A stretch of DNA of 63,886 nt, the filler included, from Rhabdomonas costata (Eukaryota): NCBI GenBank assembly GCA_019059605.1. It is 45 parts of 45 records of this genome, joined end to end, with 100 filler letters (N's around TTAATTAATTAA, not from the genome) between each part and the next. Parts side by side here need not be neighbours in the genome. Positions count along the whole stretch, not along the records: positions 1,424 to 2,746 come from JAHMHO010019418.1; positions 2,847 to 4,169 come from JAHMHO010019419.1; 43 more parts are not named here. One strand, written 5' to 3'. Shown here piece after piece: positions 1,424 to 56,876 of this stretch. Positions within the stretch are counted from its first letter, which is position 1, and each line of letters opens with the position of its first letter. The notes beneath the pieces were generated by a model. That model was not told the DNA's origin and did no database searches. It saw nothing but the letters and a program-made list of their open reading frames with translations. The translations under genes were made by a program, and so were the position numbers.

Positions 1424-1529
1424 TGGTGTGTATAATTATAGAATTATTTACACATAAACCAGTACTTACAATAGAAACGGACGATATTACAGTATCATCC
1501 TATAAAAAATGGATACAATATTGAAAAAA

Positions 1530-2034
1530 TTAGTGATTACATACTTCCAATGTGTACTCGTCTTTATTTCATGAGCTTCTGGTAATCCCAATGTTTTCAA
1601 TATTGTATCCATTTTTTATAGGATGATACTGTAATATCGTCCGTTTCTATTGTAAGTACTGGTTTATGTGTAAATAATTCTATAATTATACATACCAATG
1701 ACCATATATCACAAATTGCAGTTTTTGTAATTCCCATTAGTTCTTCGGGCGATTGACATATTGCAAGTGTTTTTGTATTTTCTTCAAATTTATGCATACA
1801 TACATCTCTTTCAAAACTTGTACCAATATTTATTTTTATTTTGTTATCTTCTACAACAAATGTTCGAGGTGTAATATTCCCATGACATGTATTAATACTA
1901 TGCATAAATGTAAGTGAACTTAATATCTCTATTACATTTTGTTTTATTGTTTTATAATCTAATTCTATATGATGTTCTACCAATGGATAGACAGATCGTT
2001 TCTCATGTGTCGCTATAATATTTGTACAGACCAT
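1530..2034 (-). pseudogene. CMGC-like Ser/Thr pseudokinase, intronless, AT-rich, frameshifted; giant-virus-like
   Basis: ORF 2034-1597 has kinase C-lobe motifs (LTFMHSINTCHGNITPRTFVV, INIG for DFG, QSPEELMG, DIWSLVCIIIELFTHKP). One extra A in the A6 run near 1612-1617 would continue as MDTILKTLGLPE (CMGC LGxP). The N-lobe is absent (in-frame TAA shortly upstream). Confidence 0.7.
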
Positions 2035-2128
2035 TATTTTATTTTTATCACCATGTTATAATATGTTATGTAGATTATAAGTATAATGTTTTTACTCGAA
2101 ATCAGTGTATGAAAGAGACATTGACATA

Positions 2129-2501
2129 ATGCCTGTCGATTACGATTCGGTTCGTTTCAACACGAAAAATATGATGGCTGACGTTCAGAAGAAACTGTTT
2201 CTCACAAGTACGAAATCCGTTGTTGTTTGCCAATGATGTTGACGAAAACTTTGAGAATCTGCTTCAAAGGTTTAAAGATGCCCAGAAAACTTTTGTGAAG
2301 GCAGACCTTAAACTTTCTGCGGAAATGTTCAACCTTGCCAAGGCAGAAGATAAAGAAGCTCATCTGAGCAAGTCAGACAACTTGCTCAAACAGAGTATGA
2401 GAGCATCAATGAACTTGTTATACAACCTTTGGAGCGCAACGAGCTCTGATAACTTGATGGCATTCATAGAACTGCTGAGACTGTTATATAGTACTAGCTG
2501 A
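2129..2501 (+). CDS. Hypothetical intronless helical protein, apparently frameshifted near 2220
   Basis: ATG at 2129 (MPVDYDSVRFNTKNMMADVQKKLFLTSTKS) runs into ORF 2220-2501 in another frame (LFANDVDENFENLLQRFKDAQK...); divergent from the kinase. Confidence 0.45.
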
Positions 2502-2516
2502 ACCGGCGAGCACTGC

Positions 2517-2552
2517 TTTTTATATATCAAAAATACTTTTCATATATAAAAA
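2517..2552 (+). terminator. AT-rich palindromic hairpin just after the stop codon; resembles a Mimiviridae-type polyadenylation hairpin
   Basis: TTTTTATATAT-C-AAAA-ATAC-TTTT-C-ATATATAAAAA: 11-bp stem, C.C mismatch, 4-bp stem, 4-nt loop, 15 nt after TGA at 2501. Confidence 0.45.
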
Positions 2553-2662
2553 TGATGATATTTACTCTATTTTGCTTTTTATATATTAAATTATGTTCAT
2601 AAAAATAACAGTGACAGTAAATTTTAATTTTATGTTGTAATGTATTAACATTTCTTTGAATA

Positions 2663-2670
2663 AAAATTGA
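2663..2670 (+). promoter_or_regulatory. AAAATTGA motif, matching the Mimiviridae early promoter
   Basis: taAAAATTGAaatata in an AT-rich intergenic stretch; any downstream ORF is cut off by the contig end. A chance match in AT-rich DNA is possible. Confidence 0.45.
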
Positions 2671-3280
2671 AATATATATCTGTTATAAAACCTATATATT
2701 GAACCGAAAATAAATAGGATTATTAAATTCTTCGTCAACACCACACNNNNNNNNNNNNNNNNNNNNNNNNNNNNNNNNNNNNNNNNNNNNTTAATTAATT
2801 AANNNNNNNNNNNNNNNNNNNNNNNNNNNNNNNNNNNNNNNNNNNNGGTGGGCTGGACACGTAAGGAACAATCAGGGCCTCGATGGGATCGAGGGCCATG
2901 GGGGCGCTGTCGGGCCTCCGCTCTTCCTCACGTGCGCGCTTCCCGCAAAGGATTGGAAGTTCGTGGGCACGGTCCACCTCCATAACTGGAGCTTCCTGGT
3001 CAGCTTCCGTTTCCGAATCCACATGCATGGGTTGTTCTCCAGATCTCTGGGGTTCGTGCTGTGGTGGTTGGGATGAAGGGATGCTGCGGCGGCGGGTGCT
3101 TGTGGCTGCTGATGCTGCTGCCGCTTTCCTGGCGGGCTCCTGTGGCGCTCAATGCAGGTATTGGCTTGGAGTGTGTGGAGCGCGGGACCCTTTGGTCCGA
3201 GGGTCAATTCAAGTGGAGCGCTGTCTTCCTTCATACCAGACTCCCGCTGGGTTACTAAGTCCCAAGCCTCATCGACGGCT

Positions 3281-4000: not shown

Positions 4001-4964
4001 CCCCCCCCACATACACACAAACCAGGGTGTGTGTTTTGGCGTGTCCCCGTGCTTGTTCTGCGCCCCTTCTGCCCACCTGTTTTGTTTGTGGTGGTGGGCC
4101 GGCTCTTTGATGACCTTGTTTGTCGGGCGTAGGGTTGGGGCCGCAGCGCCCCCCACCCACCCGTCCACTNNNNNNNNNNNNNNNNNNNNNNNNNNNNNNN
4201 NNNNNNNNNNNNNTTAATTAATTAANNNNNNNNNNNNNNNNNNNNNNNNNNNNNNNNNNNNNNNNNNNNATGTTGTGTGTCACGCTGGATGGGTTTGGTC
4301 ATGGCGTATGCCAGAGTAAAGAACTTTTCTTCTCTCAGCTGGAGCTCAGATAGTTCTTTACTCTGGCATACGCCATGACCAAACCCATCCAGCGTGACAA
4401 CAACGCCAAAATGAATCAGCGAATTACCCCGTGTACATGAGCGTGTGTGTTAGTCCACACAATGCCGAGCATTGACCGCGTGCGAGCATGTGTGTGGTGG
4501 TGTGGGTGGTGGGTGGGTGTGATGTTGGGTATGCGAGCGGAGCTTCTGGGAATCCCGGGCTGAGACCAAACCACGCAGAAATGCAGTGGTTGGCTAACAA
4601 GCTGAACTGAACATGCGTCAGTGAGGATTTCGAAGTTTGTAAATAAAGGGAGAGGAAGGCCGCGAACATCAAGGACAATATCAGGCAAATATTTTTGTTT
4701 TGTTATTTGGTGTGATGCCATTGGTGTCCCTTGAAGCCGCGATAGAGCTCGTGGCGTCCCTACCCCCAAGTGCAAAACAGATCTCAATCAAACCAGAAAG
4801 GCGGGCTGTGTTGCTTGTATGCAAAGCCAGTTTACGTGTCCTTGCTTTTTTATATTGTTATTGGCTTCTCTGTTGCAAGTTAAAATCGAACTATGGTGCA
4901 GTACTTGTGATTATTGGGGAGGATGTACAAGTTTTGGACTGAGAAGCTGGGCACGTTTTCTCAG

Positions 4965-5592
4965 GCGTCGCGAGCTGGCGGAGCTGAAGAAGGAGCGGGC
5001 CTTCCTGCGAAAGGTTGTGTTCGAAAGGGAGGACACCACGGCGTGCACCAATCTTCAGCTGGACGAGGTATCGAGCGCGAATGTGGAGGAGCGGGCGGTT
5101 GACGTCCCAGATAATGCGAAGATAACTGACGTACCATTCTGACGTAGCACACATCGAAATTGAAGTTTCATTTTCCTTGTGTGTTGTTTGCTGTTTGCTA
5201 TTTGCCGTTTGCACGTGGGTCTTTCGCTTAACAGTGGTGACGCTGTGCCGTGAATTGTTTTTGTTATAAAAATATTGAAGAATGAGGTTTATTGTGGATC
5301 GTATTGCGTGAGGCGAACATCTGGAAAGGATATGAGAAATCCACCCATTGTGCGCAACTTCGTGTGTGTGTGTGTGTACGTGGACTTTGGACTTTGTGTT
5401 TCTCAGCTGCGGCAAGAAAACGCCAGGCAGCTCCGTGCTCTCCTAGCTTACGCACGGAAGTACAACGACGAGCAGACCTGGGCCACCGCTTTGGCCGGGC
5501 CCGCAGCCACTGCGCCGTGCACTGTGCCCCAGCCCCAGCCGCAGCCTCCTCTGGCGGCCACCGCCGCGGCGCACACCGCACACACACACCCC
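4965..5592 (+). CDS. Hypothetical coiled-coil protein, 2 exons
   Basis: Exon 4965-5067 (RRELAELKKERAFLRKVVFERED...QLDE|GTATCG) joins in phase 0 to exon from 5407 (TCTCAG|LRQENARQLRALLAYARKY...); GC3-rich codons. Confidence 0.55.
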
Positions 5593-16660: not shown

Positions 16661-18499
16661 GTCTGCGCGTCCGTGACTTCGTCTTCGGTCGTCAGTCATA
16701 TCCTCGAAGGCCCGCCGAGGTCTCATTTGATGTATTCTTGCACCCTCTCCTTGGAAGACCCTCCTCCAAGGGCAGGGAGGTGCTAGAGAAAGGATAGACT
16801 CTTCTCGAATCCGGGAGCTGACAACTGCACGATGGCGACTGTTGCCGTCAGAGTGCGTTCGCCGGTCGCGGGGGCTCTCTTTTCTTTGATTCTTAATTTT
16901 TTGCTGCTTAATTTTTTGATGATAGGGTATCCGACAGAAGAACGAGTCTTTGCACAACCCACCNNNNNNNNNNNNNNNNNNNNNNNNNNNNNNNNNNNNN
17001 NNNNNNNTTAATTAATTAANNNNNNNNNNNNNNNNNNNNNNNNNNNNNNNNNNNNNNNNNNNNGGGGCCCTAGGGTGTATTTGCTGGTCGCATCTCCCGT
17101 TGGTCGATGCTCCCTAGATGTTGAACTCAGAAGCGTAACCTAAACCCGCAGTGCCTTTGACAGTTTAGCCAGGGTTCAAGGCAGTACGCCGCAGCAAAAA
17201 CACAAAAGGGCCGAATCTAAAAGAGGGGGGGCTTCTAGTGGCGGCACAGCATCGGGGAAGTTTAGAAGTTCTAGCACAAACATGACTTCATAGGGCTCTG
17301 TTTTGGCACGTTATTCTGAAATAACTTGCTGCTTGAAGCGCCAAAATGTCTTAATTACTTGACACGCATGTGCTACCAGTCAATCTGTTACTGAGGCCTC
17401 TTCAAAAGCACCAGCAGAATTGCCGTGTAAATATTTTCAGGAACAAAATAACCAGCACGGTTCCTAGTTTTCCGATAAATCTGACAAATCTGTCACAAGA
17501 GCTCCCTTTACATCAGCTTCTATCACTCTGAGTCTTTTGAGAAAATGATACTTCTGAAACGGAATCTCGACTTCTTGTATTAAAAAACTGTTCCTTCAAT
17601 AGCTCTCTTAACTCTGAATTCATAATCCACAACTAAAGTACACCAATGTCTGAAAGTAGGTGGTCTGTAAGATTAAGACTAATCCACAGTCACTCTTGCG
17701 TTTATATTGAATTGCAAATTTAACAACGGAACTGTGGTAATCCGTAACCCACATCCGAATACTTCTGGCATTTGCTTATGCATACCAATATGGAACCTTC
17801 TTTGAAATCTTCATCTACCACACTCTACTCTAGCAATTATGTGGAACAAACTGTCTTAACTGGATACTTTATAATCTTATGAGAATGTCCAAATTGCTAT
17901 TCATGATCATATTTCTTCTTCTGCTACAACACATTTAACTTGTGGTTTTGTACATATTTGAAAACCGCTGTAAGTGGTTTGTGGCCACAATCGCAGACTT
18001 TATGTTAGTGAGCAGTTATACAGTTATATACATGGATATGTTTCGCAATTCTTGTTTGATATTTGCCGATTCAGGCTCTTCATTAATACCACTATGAAGC
18101 TTCTGAATCAGTACTTAGCAGAAACGCTCTGCATCATATGAGCACACTCATTTGTGGTGTTGTTAAACTGATATTTTCTTCACAACTTGTTCCAAGCTTG
18201 CCTCTGCATCTGAAGCAATGGATGGGTCATTTGATCGTTCCCACACCACAACAAATTTTGAAATTTCTGGAATAACAGGCACATCAACGGACAATTGTAT
18301 TTCAATGTGACGCTGTTTAATTCACCGCACTGCTCGCCTTATTCCTCTCCGTCATTCTAAAACTTTTTGACCCAAACACACCAACANNNNNNNNNNNNNN
18401 NNNNNNNNNNNNNNNNNNNNNNNNNNNNNNTTAATTAATTAANNNNNNNNNNNNNNNNNNNNNNNNNNNNNNNNNNNNNNNNNNNNTGTGTTTGTTTGA

Positions 18500-19760
18500 G
18501 TTGTAATTCTAGAGGGAAACCGGGTCAGGTTGAACTCGGGTAGTACACAAGCAAGTAGTTGGAGTAGTTGAGATCAAAGTTGAGCTGGTGAGGATGTTGG
18601 TGTAGGAGGTCGTAGCAATTGGTTACCTTTTCCTGAAAAATATTGGTGCAGTGCTTGTGCAGTAGTGCAACATTTACGACCATTTTACTGGTATTGTATC
18701 TGAAATTTAGTGGATTAAGTACTAGGAATGTCATAAGTGACAGCAAGACCATGTGTGGTGCCACCGGCGGCTTTTGTCGTCCACGTATGGCTGTATGGAC
18801 CGTAGGTTTGTGACTCATTTGTCTCTGGTTGACTTCTAAGACTCACGACTATGTGTACTGGAATTTTTCACATTCATGTGGGCTCTCCAAGCGTTGTGTA
18901 CGTGTTGGCAAACATTTACAAATCACTACATTCCAGTAGGCGCTTCAGGATCCTTTTTATTACTAAGCAGTGCGCTCAAAGCTCTACACACAAGCCTAAA
19001 GTGAGGTTGAAATTGTCACAATTTTTGACGTTCAGTGGCGAACACAGCTGTGTTGAACAACACGCGTCTACGGACGTACTCAATATAATATCAGTTTTGC
19101 TGCTGAAGTCCATCGATTCTACCTGTAGAGCTTGCTTATGTTTCAGTCATTTTTTAGACCCGTATGCTCACGACCGAGCATACACCGTGATTTGGAGGTC
19201 GGAAACCAAGTTTCAGTGAAATCCACGGTAGGTCTGCTTCCAAGGTCATCCATCTGTGTTTCCTCACCTAGAGACGTTTTGTACATTTAAGGAGTCTCGT
19301 CACAACATGCGGTATTTGTTCAAATTGCTGTAAAGCAATCTTGGTAAATCTTTTCAAGAGCGCAGATCGATCCACTTCCCAGAGTGCAATCTACTCCTTG
19401 AGTGCGTAGAGTCCTCTGAGATTCCTTAGGATGCTCAGTTAATGCCTGGAACAACTTCTTGTGGCACGTGCCAAAGCTGGCAAGGCGATCAGTGTAAATC
19501 TTGTACAAAAGCCTGGCTAGATAGTGCAACTGTGACGTGTTGAAAATTGATCTGCTCTGGAACTGGCGCAGTGTCAAAGTTGAATAGCTGCCAGATGTAA
19601 ACGTTTGGCGGGAATGGTAGTGCTTGAGTGTGGTGAGTGCAATGGTAGTGAGATATTAGTTTCAGGTTGTGTGTGTTGAGGTCGTGTACTAACGCGCGAC
19701 GTGAACAAAATGAATGTCTGAAAAACGAAGTGACAGTACACTGTTAAAGAAGATAACAAG
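18500..19760 (-). mobile_element. Possible decayed LTR-retrotransposon 5' end and gag region
   Basis: Stop-riddled coding-like sequence; minus strand ...TTCTTTAACA at about 19742 resembles an LTR end; remnant LHYC...TNCYDLLHQHP resembles a broken zinc knuckle. Weak. Confidence 0.25.
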
Positions 19761-20451
19761 ACAAGAAAAAGACAATCTAGCGCGACTATACAACCTAATT
19801 GATCTACTANNNNNNNNNNNNNNNNNNNNNNNNNNNNNNNNNNNNNNNNNNNNTTAATTAATTAANNNNNNNNNNNNNNNNNNNNNNNNNNNNNNNNNNN
19901 NNNNNNNNNTGTTTCGCAAAGTGCAAAGTTTGTTTTCCGGTGGTCGCTCCTCTTTCTGCTTTTTTAAACTGCTTTTTACTGTGCCTTGTGCCTTCGCATG
20001 CTGGGTTTCGAAAAACTTGTCATGCTGGAAAGATACAGTCAACGTGGACCCCAAGCTGGCGACCAGGCACTGGAGAAACAGATTTCTTTTTTCTCAGATT
20101 GATTTCACATCACCCAAGAAAAAGCAGAAAAACAGCAAAACTTCGTCAGGGTACCAAACCTCCACAGTGAACACGCAGGAATGTCACGTTGAAAGAAAAG
20201 TTCGGTTTTCTGCTTTGCACACTGTCCTCTAAGGTTCTAACACCGTGCTTCAGCACCCCAGCACGGCAGCCTGCACCGCCACACCGCTGCACAGACTTGC
20301 TCTGACTTTGCAGGGCTTTGTTTGCGTTCAGAAAGCTTCTGGTGTAATGTCAGCCAAAAGCTCACAACCATAACTGCTGTAACGACGCCAAGCGAGGAGC
20401 GGTCGTTGTTGCAGGTCTGGGGTGAAACGGGATGAGCGTTTGAGCCCGCAC

Positions 20452-28496: not shown

Positions 28497-29065
28497 CTGG
28501 CAGCCCGGCGAGCACTTGATACCCTGTGGCAGCTCCGATCCTTCCTGGGCCTCTGGGGCAGTGTCATTGATGTCACCACTGGTTCCTTTTCCCTTTTTTG
28601 AAGCCCACACCACAACTTAATTGGACAATGTTGTTTTCCCCCTGCTGTTCTCGTTTTCAGGTGTTCAGGTGTTCATGTAGCCATGCTTGCTTCGTTATGC
28701 CCTGACTGTCGGGTCTAATGGGGGTCCTCACTTTCATTGTGTTTGATGATCAATTGTTTGCCAGCATGAACAGTTTTCTAACCAGCATCGGCGTAATGTG
28801 ACGTGCCGTGGCAACCATGCTTCTCCAGAGCAGCGTGAGCAGTGGTATCTGAGCGGACGAAGACAGGCGGGGCGGGGCGGGAAGAAACCGGTCCCCCAAC
28901 TTCATTGAATCATCCCATCACAATGGCTCTTGTCCATTTGTACGTTTAGCGCAGTGGATGGTGTACGATGCTGACATCGGAGCTTCCACCGACTCCTTGT
29001 ACGAATACCTCTTCAAAAGTTACGTCATGTTCAATGACGAGCACTACCTGAACCTTTTCGAAGAA
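28497..29065 (+). CDS. GH47 alpha-1,2-mannosidase, EDEM-like, 2 exons
   Basis: Exon 28497-28581 (LAARRALDTLWQLRSFLGLWGSVIDVTT) and exon 28950-29065 (AQWMVYDADIGASTDSLYEYLFKSYVMFNDEHYLNLFEE); GH47 IGAxxDSxYEYLxK motif. Confidence 0.9.
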
Positions 29066-29219
29066 GTGCTTGTTTGTTTGTGTGGTTTTTTTTTGTTTGT
29101 TTGTTTGTGTGTGTGTGCTTGTATTCCGTATTCTCGCTGCTCTTCACGTACCGCCGTACACGCATGCATTGCGGATGATATCAACCACACCGCACGTCCA
29201 TGCTCACCTCGCGTCTTCT

Positions 29220-29221
<2 letters not shown>

Positions 29222-29255
<34 letters not shown>
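29222..29255. repeat. (GT)n microsatellite; shorter CA/GT tracts also near 5362, 11497, 14589, 14759 and 23845
   Basis: About 17 consecutive GT units. Confidence 0.95.
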
Positions 29256-29258
<3 letters not shown>

Positions 29259-43983: not shown

Positions 43984-46032
43984 NNNNNNNNNNNNNNNNN
44001 NNNNNNNNNNNNNNNNNNNNNNNNNNNTTAATTAATTAANNNNNNNNNNNNNNNNNNNNNNNNNNNNNNNNNNNNNNNNNNNNGTGTGTGTGTTCTCGAT
44101 GGTGGTCAATGGTCAATGGTTCGTGATGTGTTGGGTTTGTCGGCGAGGTGGTTTTGGGTTCGTGCGTGAGGGTTCTGTTAGGGTTCCGTGGTTAGTTGTT
44201 CTTGTGGTATTGGGCGTGAGGGTATCTGGTGTCGTGTGGGGGGTGAGGGTTGGGTTCGCCACTCTGGGTCAGAGTGAGGAATCAGGGTTTTGCTTGCGTG
44301 TGCGCTTGGTGTGTGCTTGTGGTGTGCTCCGAGCCAGGGTTCGTGTAGTGGTTCGGGATTCGGGGTTCGGGGTTAGTGTCTGTTTCTTACCCACGGCGAT
44401 GTGTTACTATGAAAGGTGCCGTGTCTATCACTTTGTGGCGTGTATCTTCGTCGCACATATCTCCACGAGAGCACAGAAACTGCTCTCTCTTTCCATCCGC
44501 GTTGGCCCCAGTACCATGCGTAGAACATTCTGCATGCGAAGTTGAGGAGACCGCGCTGGACGGAACGGGGCGATGGCACGACGCACGCTGGTAAACCACA
44601 GATGAGGCCATCGTTCCCTAAGGCAGGATGCGTTTAGGTCATACGGCGAACCGTATGTATGCAGTAGATGTGTATGTCGTAGATGTGGAAGCCCCAGGTT
44701 GAACCCAGGGTATGTTGTGTGTGTAATTGCTCCGGATCTAAGAGACCACATGATGTAGGGTTGGGCTGAAGTGAGCCATGTTTTAACCCAACGCAGGGCG
44801 ATGCATCATGGCCTCAGTCAGTGGTAGGACACTTCACCCTAGCAACATGAGGGCGATGTCCACCAACCTATGGGCATGGTAGTAGTGAAATGGGTCCCCT
44901 TGTGGGTTAGGGACTGGTTGTGAGGGCTTACCTTGCTTAGAAACTTAGCTACTGTTCTATGTGTAAGGTGTTGCGGCTGCACCCGGCGTCGATGATGTCT
45001 TGGGCTCCGTGGTGGTGGTCAGGAACGCTACAACCCATTCACGGTCAGCACCCTAAGCACAAGCAACCGCCATGGCGTCATGGCCTCCCGTCATGGATTT
45101 GAGGCCGTGGATGTGGTGACCTGGCCGATCCAACAAAGCATGTCATCACAAGGTGTTTCAAGAACCGCACGTCAACCACCATAGGATGATGCGCCGCCCC
45201 AAGACGCTGAAAAGCAAAGGGGTTATGGTACGCTCTCTCTCTGTTGATGGTTTTTTAGAAACGGGTTTGATTTTCGTCTCACATGGGTCAGACCAGTCAC
45301 ACGGACCAACGCGTTGGAAGGGCCGAGGGAAGATGTCGAAGGCGAAACCCATACTCAAACCCGTTTCTAAAAAACCATCAACAGAGAGAGAGCGTACCAC
45401 AACCCNNNNNNNNNNNNNNNNNNNNNNNNNNNNNNNNNNNNNNNNNNNNTTAATTAATTAANNNNNNNNNNNNNNNNNNNNNNNNNNNNNNNNNNNNNNN
45501 NNNNNGTTTTTTGGGAACTGTGGCGCTTTTTGGAAATTCCCTCCGAGTTTTCCGCTTGGGGAAATATGTCTGTGAAATGTTGGGTTCAGGAGAGGTTTTT
45601 TGTGGGGGCTTGTTTTTTTAAGCTCGCTTTGGGTGCAAGAGAGTTGGTTCAGGAATTAATTCTCGACCGAATGAACCGGAAGTGAAAGGAGTGAAACTTC
45701 TCTTATACAACTCACCAAAACTCACCACAAAACAATTATTCACCAGAGAGGGTGCTACTGCGTGGCTGTTACCTAGGCCACCAGTACCGAGCCGTGAAAG
45801 ACAAGATCGTTTCCTGCTGAAATGGAATACGTGATTCTGATTGGCCTTGACGGGGTCAGAGCGTTTCAACGGTGGCTCTCTGTTTGTTTTGCGCCTATTC
45901 GCTATCGGACGCACCAATATAGTTTCTCCGGGTTTTCTCCGGGTGACGCACGCGTTGGATATCTGCTTTTTGAAGTTCCTTTGTGTTTTTTTTCTTGTGC
46001 GCTGGCTTTTCGGGGGCACTGTGTCCCCCAAA

Positions 46033-55239: not shown

Positions 55240-56082
55240 CTGAAGGCACCACATCGTAGCAACTACTTTTTAATTTGGCAGGCCTAAAAACTAGCCGACA
55301 AGAATTCGACGGAATCGTGGCAGATGCTGACAGAGCACCGCAAGCCACAAAACCNNNNNNNNNNNNNNNNNNNNNNNNNNNNNNNNNNNNNNNNNNNNTT
55401 AATTAATTAANNNNNNNNNNNNNNNNNNNNNNNNNNNNNNNNNNNNNNNNNNNNTTTTTGGGGTAAAGTGCTGGGATGACCTGTGACGAAGGAAAATAAG
55501 ATGATATTGTGGGAAATTCCCTCCCCGTTTTGCGCTTTGCGGAGGCATTGTCCCACAATATCATCTTATTTTCCTTCGTCACAGGTCATCCCAGCACTTT
55601 ATCCCAAAAGAAACGTAAAACCATTGCTCGCCATCCACTCAAATTTATGCCCACAGTTCCCGAGAGTGGCAGTTCACAACAACTAAAATCCTCCATTTCA
55701 TCTCACACCGATTACCGATTGCAACTGTCAACAATTTTTCCATTTGCAGTATATATATTGGTGAAGGGCCCCCCAGGTCACGTTTTCGGCCACGGCCCGC
55801 TTCGGCCGCGCCGTGTCGCTGACCTTTGCACCTAAACAAATGCTGACATACTTGTCCTACAACCCGACGTTCGGCTAGACCTTAGCCACCACCGGATTTG
55901 ACGTGCAAAACTACGAATACTCATCCGGGGCACATTCTTACATCAAAATAAAGTAATCCCCCCCCCAAGCCAGTCGGGCCCAAACGAGAGAAAAGAGCAA
56001 GACCTCGAGAAAGAGCCCTCGGGAACCCTACCCTCCACAACCCGACACTTTGATTTCGACAGAGCATTCAGTGCAGAGCAAC

Positions 56083-56349
56083 CTCCCCACTGTAGGCCAC
56101 CGCCTCGACGCTCAGCCGATCAAACACCGACAGAAAGTACAAGGAGTCCCGCAGGACCACCTTCACAGCCAAAGTGCACGAGTGCGACAGGGCCCCAGCA
56201 CCCGCGCCAGCTTCACTCCAAGACGGCATGGCGCCATTCGGGGCCTGCAAGAAGCGGGCACTGCTGGGTGGAAGCCCCGGCAGGGGGCCCGAAAGGAGTG
56301 CGGTAACTGAGGTCGAGTTAGAGCAACCACCCTCCATCGACACAGTGAC
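56083..56349 (-). CDS. Hypothetical protein, 267-nt internal exon
   Basis: CTCTCAG|VTVSMEGGCSNSTS...CTLAVKVVLRDSLYFLSVFDRLSVEAVAYSGE|GTTGCT, phase 0 at both ends. Confidence 0.5.
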
Positions 56350-56876
56350 CTGAGAGGGGGAGGGGGTAAACCGCGCGCAGCGGTAATAGGGCATTTGGTG
56401 TGCCCGCGAAAAGTTGCATGGGGTGTCATCGCGATTGTATGTAATGCCCCGAAGCCCTGAAAATGAGAAATTTGACTTCAACTTTCCGAACTGAAACCCC
56501 CCAACCAACCCGATTATCACGCCCTTGGTCTCAGGTTGAAGAACCCCACGTTTACGGTGGAGGGTAACATGTAGAATACCTTGGGTTCCTAGACAACGCC
56601 TCACACTCTGAGCACACTCACACCCACTCACCCACACACGGAATCACATAAAATTTCAAACGGAATTTCTTCGTGGTTCTCTCTTTCCGTTCATTCTGAT
56701 CCAAGGGAACCTGTTTTCCTTTAGAGCAGTTCGGTTGGTCGCTCTTGTCCGCAGTGGGTATGAGCGACCACCCAACNNNNNNNNNNNNNNNNNNNNNNNN
56801 NNNNNNNNNNNNNNNNNNNNTTAATTAATTAANNNNNNNNNNNNNNNNNNNNNNNNNNNNNNNNNNNNNNNNNNNN

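What the first reader, a model, noticed from the sequence alone, without database searches (positions are those of the whole stretch)
1424..2746. Giant-virus-like (Mimiviridae/Imitervirales) contig inside a protist assembly
Seen: much more AT-rich than other contigs (roughly 70% AT by eye), intronless, two closely packed divergent ORFs, an AAAAATTGA motif at 2662-2670 and an AT-rich palindrome right after a stop codon. Known: AAAATTGA is the Mimiviridae early promoter, mimivirus transcripts end at 3' hairpins, and these viruses carry divergent kinases. Inference: DNA of an undescribed giant virus, either co-sequenced or endogenised. Both ORFs appear frameshifted, which would fit a decaying endogenous element.
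Basis: partly seen in the sequence, partly recalled or inferred. Interest (0 to 1): 0.7.

Follow-up and report, generated by a model that had tools for sequence, protein, structure and literature searches.

The report
Orphan AT-rich scrap with dead kinase
A 1.3-kb AT-rich piece of foreign DNA among a eukaryote's contigs carries a broken kinase remnant and an orphan reading frame, but nothing on it shows that it comes from a giant virus.

Summary
The window is 45 contigs of about 1.32 kb joined by spacers. Contig 1424-2746 is the compositional outlier: 29.9% GC against 40.5-59% for the other 44. Its first 108 nt are an inverted copy of 1590-1697, a terminal foldback also seen in 3 other contigs.

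The minus-strand ORF is only the C-lobe of a CMGC-type kinase (Pfam 34.8 bits). It has no N-lobe, HRD reads HGN, DFG reads NIG, and a frameshift sits at a T6 run. The plus-strand frame (2129-2501) has no relatives. It forms a 40% GC island with GC3 of 48%, against 13% in the kinase.

AAAAATTGA occurs once, at chance level, and not upstream of either ORF. The palindrome after the stop codon is real (0 of 1000 shuffles), but it is not typical of 49 IMG/VR kinase loci.

The best kinase relatives are 27-33% identical. They are scattered over eukaryotes, unnamed metagenome proteins and giant-virus contigs alike.

Verdict: foreign AT-rich DNA with dead gene remnants, source unresolved. Giant virus is possible (about 0.3) but not shown. 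Low interest.

The parts
1424..1531 (.). Artefactual inverted copy of 1590-1697 (terminal foldback); not independent sequence
   Evidence: 108-nt arms, 98% complementary, with 58 nt between them. The same kind of terminal foldback is found in 4 of 45 contigs of the window. Rfam gives only sub-threshold miRNA-precursor matches, on both strands, on this hairpin.
1532..1615 (-). Continuation of the kinase in another frame (KMDTILKTLGLPEAHE...), reached through a frameshift at the T6 run 1612-1617. It runs through the 58-nt loop of the foldback.
   Evidence: Six-frame translation. hhalign places it at kinase profile columns 212-229, directly after the main frame's 86-208; the score is weak, E 0.08.
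1597..2055 (-). Kinase C-lobe remnant: 152 codons stop-to-stop, first ATG at 2032-2034, TGA at 1597-1599. HRD reads HGN, DFG reads NIG, SPE and DIWSLVC are kept. GC3 is 13%.
   Evidence: Pfam Pkinase 34.8 bits (cut-off 31.7), profile positions 72-204 of 263. No N-lobe is found even when reading through stops. Best solved relatives are CMGC kinases. Only 2 of 1000 shuffles of the unique contig give 152 or more open codons. Codon-position GC.
2035..2128 (.). 94-nt spacer between the two divergent ATGs, about 27% GC, with no AAAATTGA on either strand
2129..2236 (+). Possible N-terminal part of ORF2 (ATG 2129, frame 2, TGA 2234-2236), GC1/2/3 .46/.29/.49
   Evidence: no Pfam match
2175..2501 (+). 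ORF2 main frame (108 codons, frame 3, TGA 2499-2501): an orphan, predicted helical, forming a 37-42% GC island with GC3 of 48%
   Evidence: No Pfam match. No homologues at near or longer lengths. None in IMG/VR or JGI metagenome contigs. Atlas gave none. AF2 pLDDT 59, three long helices. BFVD gave 0 matches at E <= 0.001. GC3 is 52/108 against 20/152 in the kinase, Fisher p 6.6e-10. Its length alone is weak evidence: 125 of 2000 local shuffles reach it.
2517..2552 (.). A/T-only palindrome (16-nt arms, 1 mismatch, 4-nt loop), 16 nt after the ORF2 stop. A third copy of TTTTTATATAT lies at 2576-2590.
   Evidence: 0 of 1000 dinucleotide shuffles of 2502-2746 reach 16-nt arms. The RNA folding energy of 2490-2620 is not unusual, z -0.57.
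2502..2746 (.). 17-22% GC tail without a convincing ORF; holds the single AAAAATTGA at 2662-2670 (+)

Best explanation
What is shown. This is about 1.2 kb of unique DNA from a genome other than the roughly 50% GC, intron-rich eukaryote that makes up the rest of the window. It went through the same library and assembly, because it carries the same kind of terminal foldback as three host contigs.

It holds the C-terminal lobe of a CMGC-type (DYRK/CDK/GSK3-like) protein kinase. That remnant cannot be catalytic: there is no ATP-binding lobe, both catalytic Asp residues read Asn, and the frame is broken at a homopolymer. Beside it lies a possible 124-codon orphan gene, also out of frame, whose codon composition differs sharply from the kinase's.

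What is inferred. Nothing on the fragment 'works' in the sampled organism; these are inert gene remnants. The source I rate most likely is an unsequenced AT-rich cellular eukaryote present in the sample (prey, co-infecting or symbiotic protist, or contaminant). Such genomes commonly hold kinase pseudogenes and genes of very unequal GC3. The coarse claims (foreign DNA, a foldback artefact, a dead kinase) I hold at about 0.85. The cellular source I hold at only about 0.4.
For: - Composition: 29.9% GC against 40.5-59% for the other 44 contigs. There is no similarity to the other 44 contigs.
- Foldback: arms 1424-1531 and 1590-1697, recurring in 4 of 45 contigs. It has the form described for MDA chimeras, which are more than 85% inverted with an intervening deletion (abstract of PMC1855051).
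- Kinase: Pfam covers only profile positions 72-204 of 263. No N-lobe is found by Pfam or hhalign on the stop-read-through. HGN and NIG stand where CMGC kinases have HRD and DFG (alignments). The frameshift is supported by colinear profile columns.
- Nearest rows in a 240-row C-lobe tree are an unnamed ENA protein, a Babesia microti kinase, a JGI kinase/cyclin protein and two Paramecium kinases. No clade is supported.
- GC3 is 13% in the kinase against 48% in ORF2, p 6.6e-10.
- The host contigs look eukaryotic and largely non-coding. I scanned 47 of the 127 ORFs of 110 aa or more. Only 1 of those 47 has a Pfam match, a GH47 exon-sized piece.
Against: - No named cellular relative is closer than 27-33% identity among 1.84 billion representatives: 267 at E <= 0.001 and 0 at E <= 1e-30. 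The 'cellular' label therefore rests on no specific kinship.
- The nearest neighbours are all from AT-rich sources and may be drawn together by composition or by long branches (FastTree, no starred clade).
- Giant-virus contigs carry kinases scoring nearly as well: 54-57 bits by tblastn against 61.6 bits for the best of the 160 stored database hits. One of those records holds two NCLDV capsid matches.
- A non-random palindrome just after a stop codon, a 94-nt divergent spacer and an ORFan all fit Mimiviridae-like genomes.
- Frames that are open under the standard code argue against a Paramecium- or Tetrahymena-type code. That is my inference from recalled codon usage, not a test.
Confidence: 0.4

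Rival explanations
1. This is a fragment of an undescribed AT-rich giant virus (Imitervirales-like), either co-sequenced as virion or infection DNA or present as a decaying endogenous copy. The kinase would be a degenerate viral DYRK-like paralogue and ORF2 a viral ORFan or a recently captured gene. The palindrome would be a hairpin-type transcript end, and AAAAATTGA the early promoter of a next gene lying beyond the contig end.
For: - The contig is 30% GC. The median GC of 86 IMG/VR kinase-bearing loci is 29%.
- Those loci include DYRK-like kinases at 27-29% identity and 54-57 bits, with KI(I)D(F/L)GSSF against KINIGTSF here. The record behind L010 has Capsid_NCLDV matches of 211 and 54.5 bits.
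- The palindrome 16 nt after the stop is non-random.
- The 9-mer AAAAATTGA is present: 3.4% of shuffles of the non-coding parts show one, and it is 2-fold enriched in the IMG/VR loci, 17 against 8.7 expected.
- The literature passages on the motif, on palindromes after ORFs and on kinases agree (listing and abstract start of PMC4402537).
- ORF2 has no relatives anywhere.
Against: - No hallmark gene is on the contig.
- No close relative turned up in IMG/VR, by two peptide-pattern scans and two exact DNA scans.
- ORF2 is absent from the one giant-virus record that could be searched.
- 0 of 2 visible upstream regions carry the motif, and the 8-mer is at chance both here and in the IMG/VR loci.
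- Long palindromes after the kinase stop are rare in the IMG/VR loci: 2 of 49 have arms of 12 nt or more, and 0 of 49 have 16 or more.
- Both frames are broken and the kinase has lost half its domain. I recall this as uncommon in replicating giant viruses; it was not tested.
- The GC3 contrast of 13% against 48% is unusual for one viral genome.
- There is no host-like flank to support endogenisation.
Confidence: 0.3
2. This is an AT-rich island of the host's own genome. It would be an old insertion or a degenerate repeat region that assembled as a separate short contig.
For: It shares the library artefact (terminal foldback) with host contigs. The genes are dead. Two other contigs of the window are also below the norm, at 40.5% and 43.6% GC.
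Against: There is a 10-point GC gap to the next lowest contig. Neither contig end has host-like sequence. There is no similarity to the other 44 contigs. The kinase frame's codon-position pattern (GC3 13%) is that of a gene evolved in a very AT-rich genome.
Confidence: 0.12
3. The contig is itself a mosaic made during amplification or assembly. AT-rich DNA would have been joined to an unrelated 40% GC piece (2084-2517), so that the 'divergent gene pair' and the truncated kinase are artefacts of joining.
For: The contig demonstrably holds one chimeric join, the foldback. Such joins are common in this assembly, in 4 of 45 contigs. GC3 switches sharply between the two frames. The kinase homology stops abruptly at the hinge, with nothing upstream.
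Against: The GC island coincides to within about 30 nt with ORF2's own ATG and stop, and it has AT-rich sequence on both sides. That would need two joins placed just so. MDA chimeras are mostly inverted copies of nearby sequence (abstract of PMC1855051), not insertions.
Confidence: 0.1
4. This is DNA of an AT-rich intracellular bacterium that carries a eukaryote-like kinase effector pseudogene.
For: The composition is low-GC, the genes are broken and the spacing is compact.
Against: No relative was found in one genome for each of 185,579 prokaryote species, by a peptide-pattern scan that reaches only close relatives. The best relatives are CMGC kinases of eukaryotes. Sigma-70-like sites are at chance level, 11 against 10.0 expected, and the palindrome has no G-C pairs and is not called as an intrinsic terminator.
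Confidence: 0.05

Closest known systems
CMGC protein kinases (DYRK / CDK / CDKL / GSK3). The best solved matches are 9cmz_A and 8u2o_A 'Protein kinase 6', then CDKL2, GSK3 and CDK1.
   Same: The C-lobe is colinear from the hinge to beyond helix F. The SPE (APE) and DIWSxxC motifs are kept, and a CMGC-like 'ILKTLGLP' follows in the shifted frame. The match is above the Pfam Pkinase gathering score.
   Different: There is no N-lobe: no G-loop, no VAIK lysine and no helix C. HRD reads HGN and DFG reads NIG. The frame is broken at a T6 run, and the 3' end is lost in the foldback. Identity is only 27-33%.
DYRK-like kinases on AT-rich IMG/VR contigs (L010, L011, L012, L023). The record of L010 carries NCLDV capsid genes.
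   Same: About 28-30% GC context, 27-29% identity over 103-111 residues, and a similar 'KI.D.GSSF' activation-loop start.
   Different: Those are full-length (296-356 aa of open frame within the loci) with intact HxD and D(F/L)G motifs. The similarity is no higher than to cellular kinases. No tree clade is supported.
Mimiviridae early promoter (AAAATTGA / AAAAATTGA) and 'hairpin rule' transcript ends
   Same: One exact 9-mer sits in AT-rich spacer, and one significant A/T palindrome lies 16 nt after a stop codon.
   Different: The motif is at chance frequency, lies downstream of ORF2, has no ORF after it within the contig, and is absent from both visible upstream regions. Function as a promoter or terminator is untested.
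Inverted (foldback) chimeras of whole-genome amplification or library preparation
   Same: An inverted duplicate of adjacent sequence abuts the contig end and is separated by a short unique loop. It recurs in unrelated contigs. The form matches the abstract of PMC1855051.
   Different: The method used for this assembly is unknown to me. No reads could be inspected.

Membership tests
Nucleocytoviricota / Imitervirales genome fragment | Hallmark genes (major capsid protein, PolB, A32 ATPase, VLTF3, etc.) on the contig or in the same compositional bin | tested here: not met
   On the contig, the only Pfam family found is Pkinase. No other contig of the window is below 40% GC. The rest of the assembly could not be searched, so the bin itself is untested.
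Nucleocytoviricota / Imitervirales genome fragment | Proteins closest to those of known or metagenomic giant viruses | tested here: inconclusive
   No close relatives in IMG/VR. Distant viral kinases score 54-57 bits against 61.6 bits for the best stored database hit. No clade is supported in the tree.
Nucleocytoviricota / Imitervirales genome fragment | AAAATTGA-type motif enriched within about 150 nt upstream of start codons | tested here: not met
   0 of 2 visible upstream regions hold it. The single copy elsewhere has chance probability 0.26 (8-mer) or 0.10 (9-mer).
Nucleocytoviricota / Imitervirales genome fragment | Palindromic hairpin just after ORF ends | tested here: met
   Met for ORF2: 16-nt arms, 0 of 1000 shuffles. 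It cannot be judged for the kinase, whose 3' end is lost in the foldback. The feature is rare in 49 IMG/VR kinase loci, so its weight is limited.
Nucleocytoviricota / Imitervirales genome fragment | AT-rich, compact, intron-poor coding | tested here: met
   29.9% GC, a 94-nt divergent spacer, and a kinase C-lobe colinear with the profile. This is shared with many cellular AT-rich genomes.
Protein kinase superfamily (Pfam PF00069), CMGC group | Match to the Pkinase model above the gathering score, with best relatives in CMGC | tested here: met
   34.8 bits against a cut-off of 31.7, covering only part of the model (72-204 of 263). Top solved matches are CDK-like, CDKL, GSK3 and CDK1.
Protein kinase superfamily (Pfam PF00069), CMGC group | Complete bilobal domain with G-loop, VAIK lysine and helix-C glutamate | tested here: not met
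   Pfam and hhalign on the read-through with X at stops align only from the hinge onward.
Protein kinase superfamily (Pfam PF00069), CMGC group | Catalytic Asp of HRD and metal-binding Asp of DFG | tested here: not met
   HGN and NIG at the aligned positions. It is a homologue of kinases, not an active kinase.
Amplification/assembly foldback artefact | Inverted duplicate of adjacent sequence at a contig end, recurring in unrelated contigs | tested here: met
   (4 of 45 contigs)
Amplification/assembly foldback artefact | Junction supported only by chimeric reads | not testable with these tools

The most novel reading that the evidence does not exclude
The contig is the only visible piece, in this window, of an undescribed Imitervirales-like giant virus associated with this eukaryote, or a relic of one. 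It would use the AAAAATTGA early promoter and hairpin transcript ends. It would carry a DYRK-like pseudokinase next to a compositionally foreign ORFan (GC3 48%, near the host's own GC) that it captured recently, possibly from the host.
Probability: 0.25. Interest if true: 0.4.

Novelty: new member of a known kind. Interest (0 to 1): 0.2.

Why it matters
If the fragment were viral, it would flag a giant virus associated with this eukaryote. It would also mark a possible host-to-virus gene capture, which would justify binning the whole assembly.

As it stands, it is mainly a caution. An AT-rich contig with a kinase, one AAAAATTGA and a palindrome is not enough to call a giant virus. Short contigs of this assembly also carry foldback artefacts that mimic hairpins and miRNA precursors.

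Tried and rejected
1. Hidden N-lobe or alternative genetic code. By eye, the frame upstream of the kinase looked like a decayed N-lobe interrupted by three TAA codons and one TGA. Pfam and hhalign on the read-through do not align it, so I rejected this.

2. ORF2 function. Nothing was found in any of these:
- Pfam;
- homologue searches at near and longer lengths;
- Atlas;
- IMG/VR and JGI metagenome scans;
- the giant-virus record G001.
AF2 without an alignment gave pLDDT 59. The BFVD fold search gave 0 matches at E <= 0.001, which means little at that confidence.

3. Close relatives of the kinase. None turned up in IMG/VR, JGI metagenome contigs or GTDB genomes. The same held for its neighbours P0004 and P0054.

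4. Alignment-based scan of IMG/VR. It was technically not possible because no stretch was conserved enough. I replaced it with a degenerate motif scan.

5. Tree placement. No supported clade. The input was 283 domain pieces. Rows with more than 30% gaps, or 80% or more identical to a kept row, were dropped, leaving 240.

6. RNA gene. Rfam gives only sub-threshold miRNA-precursor hits on the foldback, on both strands, so I rejected this as an artefact.

7. Bacterial promoter and terminator reading. Both are at chance level.

8. Inverted repeats I2 and I3 flanking ORF2 (26 nt, 81% complementary). By my own rough estimate they are about as frequent as chance in AT-rich sequence, so I did not pursue them.

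9. A short intron in place of the ORF2 frameshift. No GT..AG interval of fitting length and AT-rich make-up lies in 2175-2255. This is by eye and is not a formal test.

10. Whole assembly, sequencing runs and earlier findings were not available.
Full report
**What the window is.** The 63,886 bases are 45 short contigs of 1312-1331 bp. They are laid end to end with N...TTAATTAATTAA...N spacers. The finding covers exactly one contig, 1424-2746.

That contig is 29.9% GC. The other 44 range from 40.5 to 59.0%, and 42 of them from 45.8 to 59.0%. The compositional observation is therefore confirmed.

I scanned 47 of the 127 open frames of 110 aa or more. Only 1 of those 47 matches a Pfam family, an exon-sized piece of glycosyl hydrolase 47. 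The bulk of the window thus looks like intron-rich, mostly non-coding eukaryotic DNA. I did not verify that it is a protist.

The whole assembly, its sequencing runs and earlier notes were not available.

**An artefact at the left end.** Bases 1424-1531 are a 98% reverse-complement copy of 1590-1697, with 58 nt between them. The same kind of terminal foldback occurs in 4 of 45 contigs, three of which are ordinary host contigs. This is the form described for inverted chimeras of multiple displacement amplification (abstract of PMC1855051). I do not know how this library was made.

Three things follow:
- Only about 1.2 kb (1532-2746) is independent sequence.
- The 3' end of the kinase gene is lost.
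- The AT-rich DNA went through the same library as the host DNA.

Rfam's only matches on the contig are miRNA-precursor models on this hairpin, on both strands and far below their gathering scores.

**The kinase.** The minus-strand frame 1597-2055 (152 codons, first ATG at 2032-2034) matches Pfam Pkinase at 34.8 bits, against a cut-off of 31.7. It covers only profile positions 72-204 of 263.

- *No N-lobe.* I read the same frame upstream through its stops (TAA at 2056, 2092 and 2140; TGA at 2185), with X at each stop. This does not extend the match in Pfam. It does not extend it in a profile-profile comparison with 30 full-length relatives either; that comparison aligns columns 86-208 only, with probability 99.2%. 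An N-lobe that I thought I saw by eye under the ciliate code is therefore not supported.
- *Lost catalytic residues.* At the aligned positions HRD reads HGN and DFG reads NIG. SPE and DIWSLVC are kept.
- *Frameshift.* The frame ends at a TGA (1597-1599) just after a T6 run (1612-1617). The peptide in the neighbouring frame, KMDTILKTLGLPEAHE..., aligns to columns 212-229 of the same profile, directly after column 208. The score is weak (E 0.08). Together this supports a one-base frameshift in a homopolymer. It may be a mutation or a consensus error.
- *Group.* The best solved relatives are all CMGC kinases: 'Protein kinase 6' (9cmz, 8u2o; I recall this as Plasmodium PfPK6), then CDKL2, GSK3 and CDK1.

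The ORF is thus a homologue of CMGC kinases, but it is not a possible enzyme.

**Where the kinase comes from.**
- *All-against-all HMMER search.* Against 1.84 billion representatives there were 267 proteins at E <= 0.001, 5 at E <= 1e-10 and none at E <= 1e-30. The best scores 72.6 bits at 27% identity, and it scores high because it has several kinase domains.
- *Named hits.* Of the top 10, 8 carry organism names, and they are scattered: a dictyostelid, a pseudoscorpion, a nematode, a chytrid, Paramecium, two basidiomycetes and a yam. Of 20 further hits looked up, the ones with names are a Babesia microti kinase, two Paramecium kinases and two JGI metagenome proteins. The rest are unnamed.
- *Scans for close relatives.* Nothing was found in IMG/VR, JGI metagenome contigs or one genome per prokaryote species.
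- *Viral kinases.* To give them a fair chance, I scanned IMG/VR with a degenerate DIWSx[G/V..]CIxxE pattern and got 86 loci with a median GC of 29%. The best four (L012, L010, L011, L023; DYRK-like) give 54-57 bits at 27-29% identity. The best of the 160 stored database hits gives 61.6 bits. The record behind L010 holds two NCLDV capsid matches, so it is a giant virus. The other three records were not held.
- *Tree.* I built a FastTree of 240 C-lobe rows (41 viral, 198 database, 131 columns) from 283 domain pieces. Rows with more than 30% gaps, or 80% or more identical to a kept row, were dropped. The tree puts the query next to an unnamed ENA protein, the Babesia kinase, a JGI kinase/cyclin protein and two Paramecium kinases, with no supported clade around it.

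The kinase is equally far from everything. It is compatible with a giant virus and with an AT-rich cell, and it favours neither.

**ORF2.** The plus strand has an ATG at 2129 and an open frame to 2236. A second frame is open from 2175 to the TGA at 2499-2501.

- *Composition.* The two frames have the same codon-position GC pattern.46/.29/.49 and .42/.32/.48. The 37-42% GC island they form begins and ends with them. This fits one gene with a frameshift.
- *Weak support from length.* 125 of 2000 local shuffles give 108 or more open codons.
- *No relatives.* Nothing was found in Pfam, in 5.8 billion protein clusters at near or longer lengths, in the Atlas, or in IMG/VR or JGI contigs.
- *Structure.* The single-sequence AlphaFold model is three helices at pLDDT 59, and it finds nothing in BFVD.

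What was not noticed before is that its GC3 (52 of 108 codons) differs sharply from the kinase's (20 of 152), with Fisher p 6.6e-10. Three readings fit this:
- ORF2 arrived recently from a genome of moderate GC.
- The source genome has very unequal codon usage.
- The contig is a mosaic.

I cannot decide between them.

**The two 'mimivirus' signals.** AAAATTGA lies within 150 nt upstream of 45% of mimivirus genes (passage in PMC5294985). AAAAATTGA, palindromes after ORFs and many Ser/Thr kinases are reported for Bodo saltans virus (passages in bioRxiv 10.1101/214536). Polyadenylation at hairpin-forming palindromes appears in the abstract start of PMC4402537 (search listing).

*The motif.*
- The 8-mer occurs twice in the window against 3.9 expected.
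- It occurs once in the contig. At least one copy appears in 26% of 2000 shuffles. For the 9-mer the figure is 10%, and within the non-coding parts alone 9% and 3.4%.
- The copy lies 160 nt after ORF2's stop and 76 nt from the contig end, with no ATG behind it. The 94-nt spacer that should hold both visible promoters has none.
- In the 86 IMG/VR loci the 8-mer is not enriched either (28 against 23.5 expected). The 9-mer is enriched about 2-fold (17 against 8.7 expected; 16 of 86 loci).
- One copy therefore shifts the odds by a factor of about two at most.

*The palindrome.*
- It is real: 16-nt arms with one mismatch, and 0 of 1000 dinucleotide shuffles of the 245-nt tail reach that length.
- It is made of A and T only. 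The folding energy of the region is unremarkable, z -0.57.
- Among 49 IMG/VR loci with a complete 80-nt tail after the kinase stop, only 2 have arms of 12 nt or more, and none has 16.
- It fits the hairpin rule of Mimiviridae proper. It is not a general giant-virus mark, and I have no control from AT-rich cellular genomes.

**Weighing.**

For a virus:
- the composition;
- the compact divergent pair;
- the ORFan;
- the palindrome;
- the 9-mer.

Against a virus:
- no hallmark gene;
- no viral relative closer than cellular ones;
- both frames broken;
- half a kinase with its catalytic residues gone;
- discordant GC3;
- no motif where promoters should be.

There is no host flank, so 'endogenised' has no support.

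My odds:
- AT-rich cellular eukaryote in the sample: 0.4.
- Giant virus, free or relic: 0.3.
- AT-rich island of the host: 0.12.
- Amplification mosaic: 0.1.
- AT-rich bacterium: 0.05.

The coarse statements (foreign DNA, foldback artefact, dead CMGC kinase remnant) I hold at about 0.85.

**Novelty and verdict.** The sequences have no close relatives, but the kinds of things present are all known: a pseudokinase remnant, an orphan frame, a foreign low-GC contig and a library foldback. Interest is low (0.2).

The boldest reading still allowed is a fragment of an undescribed Imitervirales-like virus with a recently captured gene. I give it about 0.25. It would merit binning the full assembly, which is the decisive step I could not take.

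Papers recalled but not opened: Suhre et al. 2005 (the motif), Byrne et al. 2009 (the hairpin rule) and Fischer et al. 2010 (CroV).

Noticed in passing
window 4270-5592 (5' end), 44084-45405 (3' end), 55455-56776 (5' end): Three host-composition contigs also begin or end with an inverted copy of adjacent sequence, like the target contig. This assembly carries foldback chimeras that can mimic hairpin RNAs or terminal inverted repeats.
   Followed up: partly
window 17064-18386 and 18487-19809: Two contigs are at 40.5% and 43.6% GC, below the 46-59% of the rest. They have only short unremarkable open frames. The window's second AAAATTGA is at 19543-19550.
   Followed up: partly
window 28853-29257 (+): This is the only Pfam match among 47 long open frames of the host contigs. 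It is a 39-residue piece of glycosyl hydrolase family 47 (27.9 bits), probably one exon of a eukaryotic mannosidase gene.
   Followed up: no
window 2361-2392: A 14-pair inverted repeat (core GAGCAAGT / ACTTGCTC) lies inside ORF2. The terminator scan flagged it on the minus strand. Its meaning is unknown.
   Followed up: no
window 2513-2527, 2541-2552, 2572-2590: The unit (TGC)TTTTTATATAT occurs twice in direct and once in inverted orientation within 80 nt. The palindrome after ORF2 is thus part of a small local repeat family.
   Followed up: partly
proteins P0004, P0007, P0011 (unnamed metagenome proteins, 590-657 aa): These are tandem kinase-kinase proteins whose first domain is degenerate (for example HGNLTP in P0004) while the second is intact. 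P0054 (252 aa) is also a short kinase-like protein with HSN and no DFG. The query's best matches include several such pseudokinases.
   Followed up: partly
IMG/VR loci L001-L086: In 49 giant-virus-type kinase loci, long palindromes within 80 nt after the stop codon are rare (2 of 49 with arms of 12 nt or more). AAAATTGA is not enriched overall (28 against 23.5 expected). Both 'mimivirus signals' are lineage-specific rather than general NCLDV marks.
   Followed up: partly
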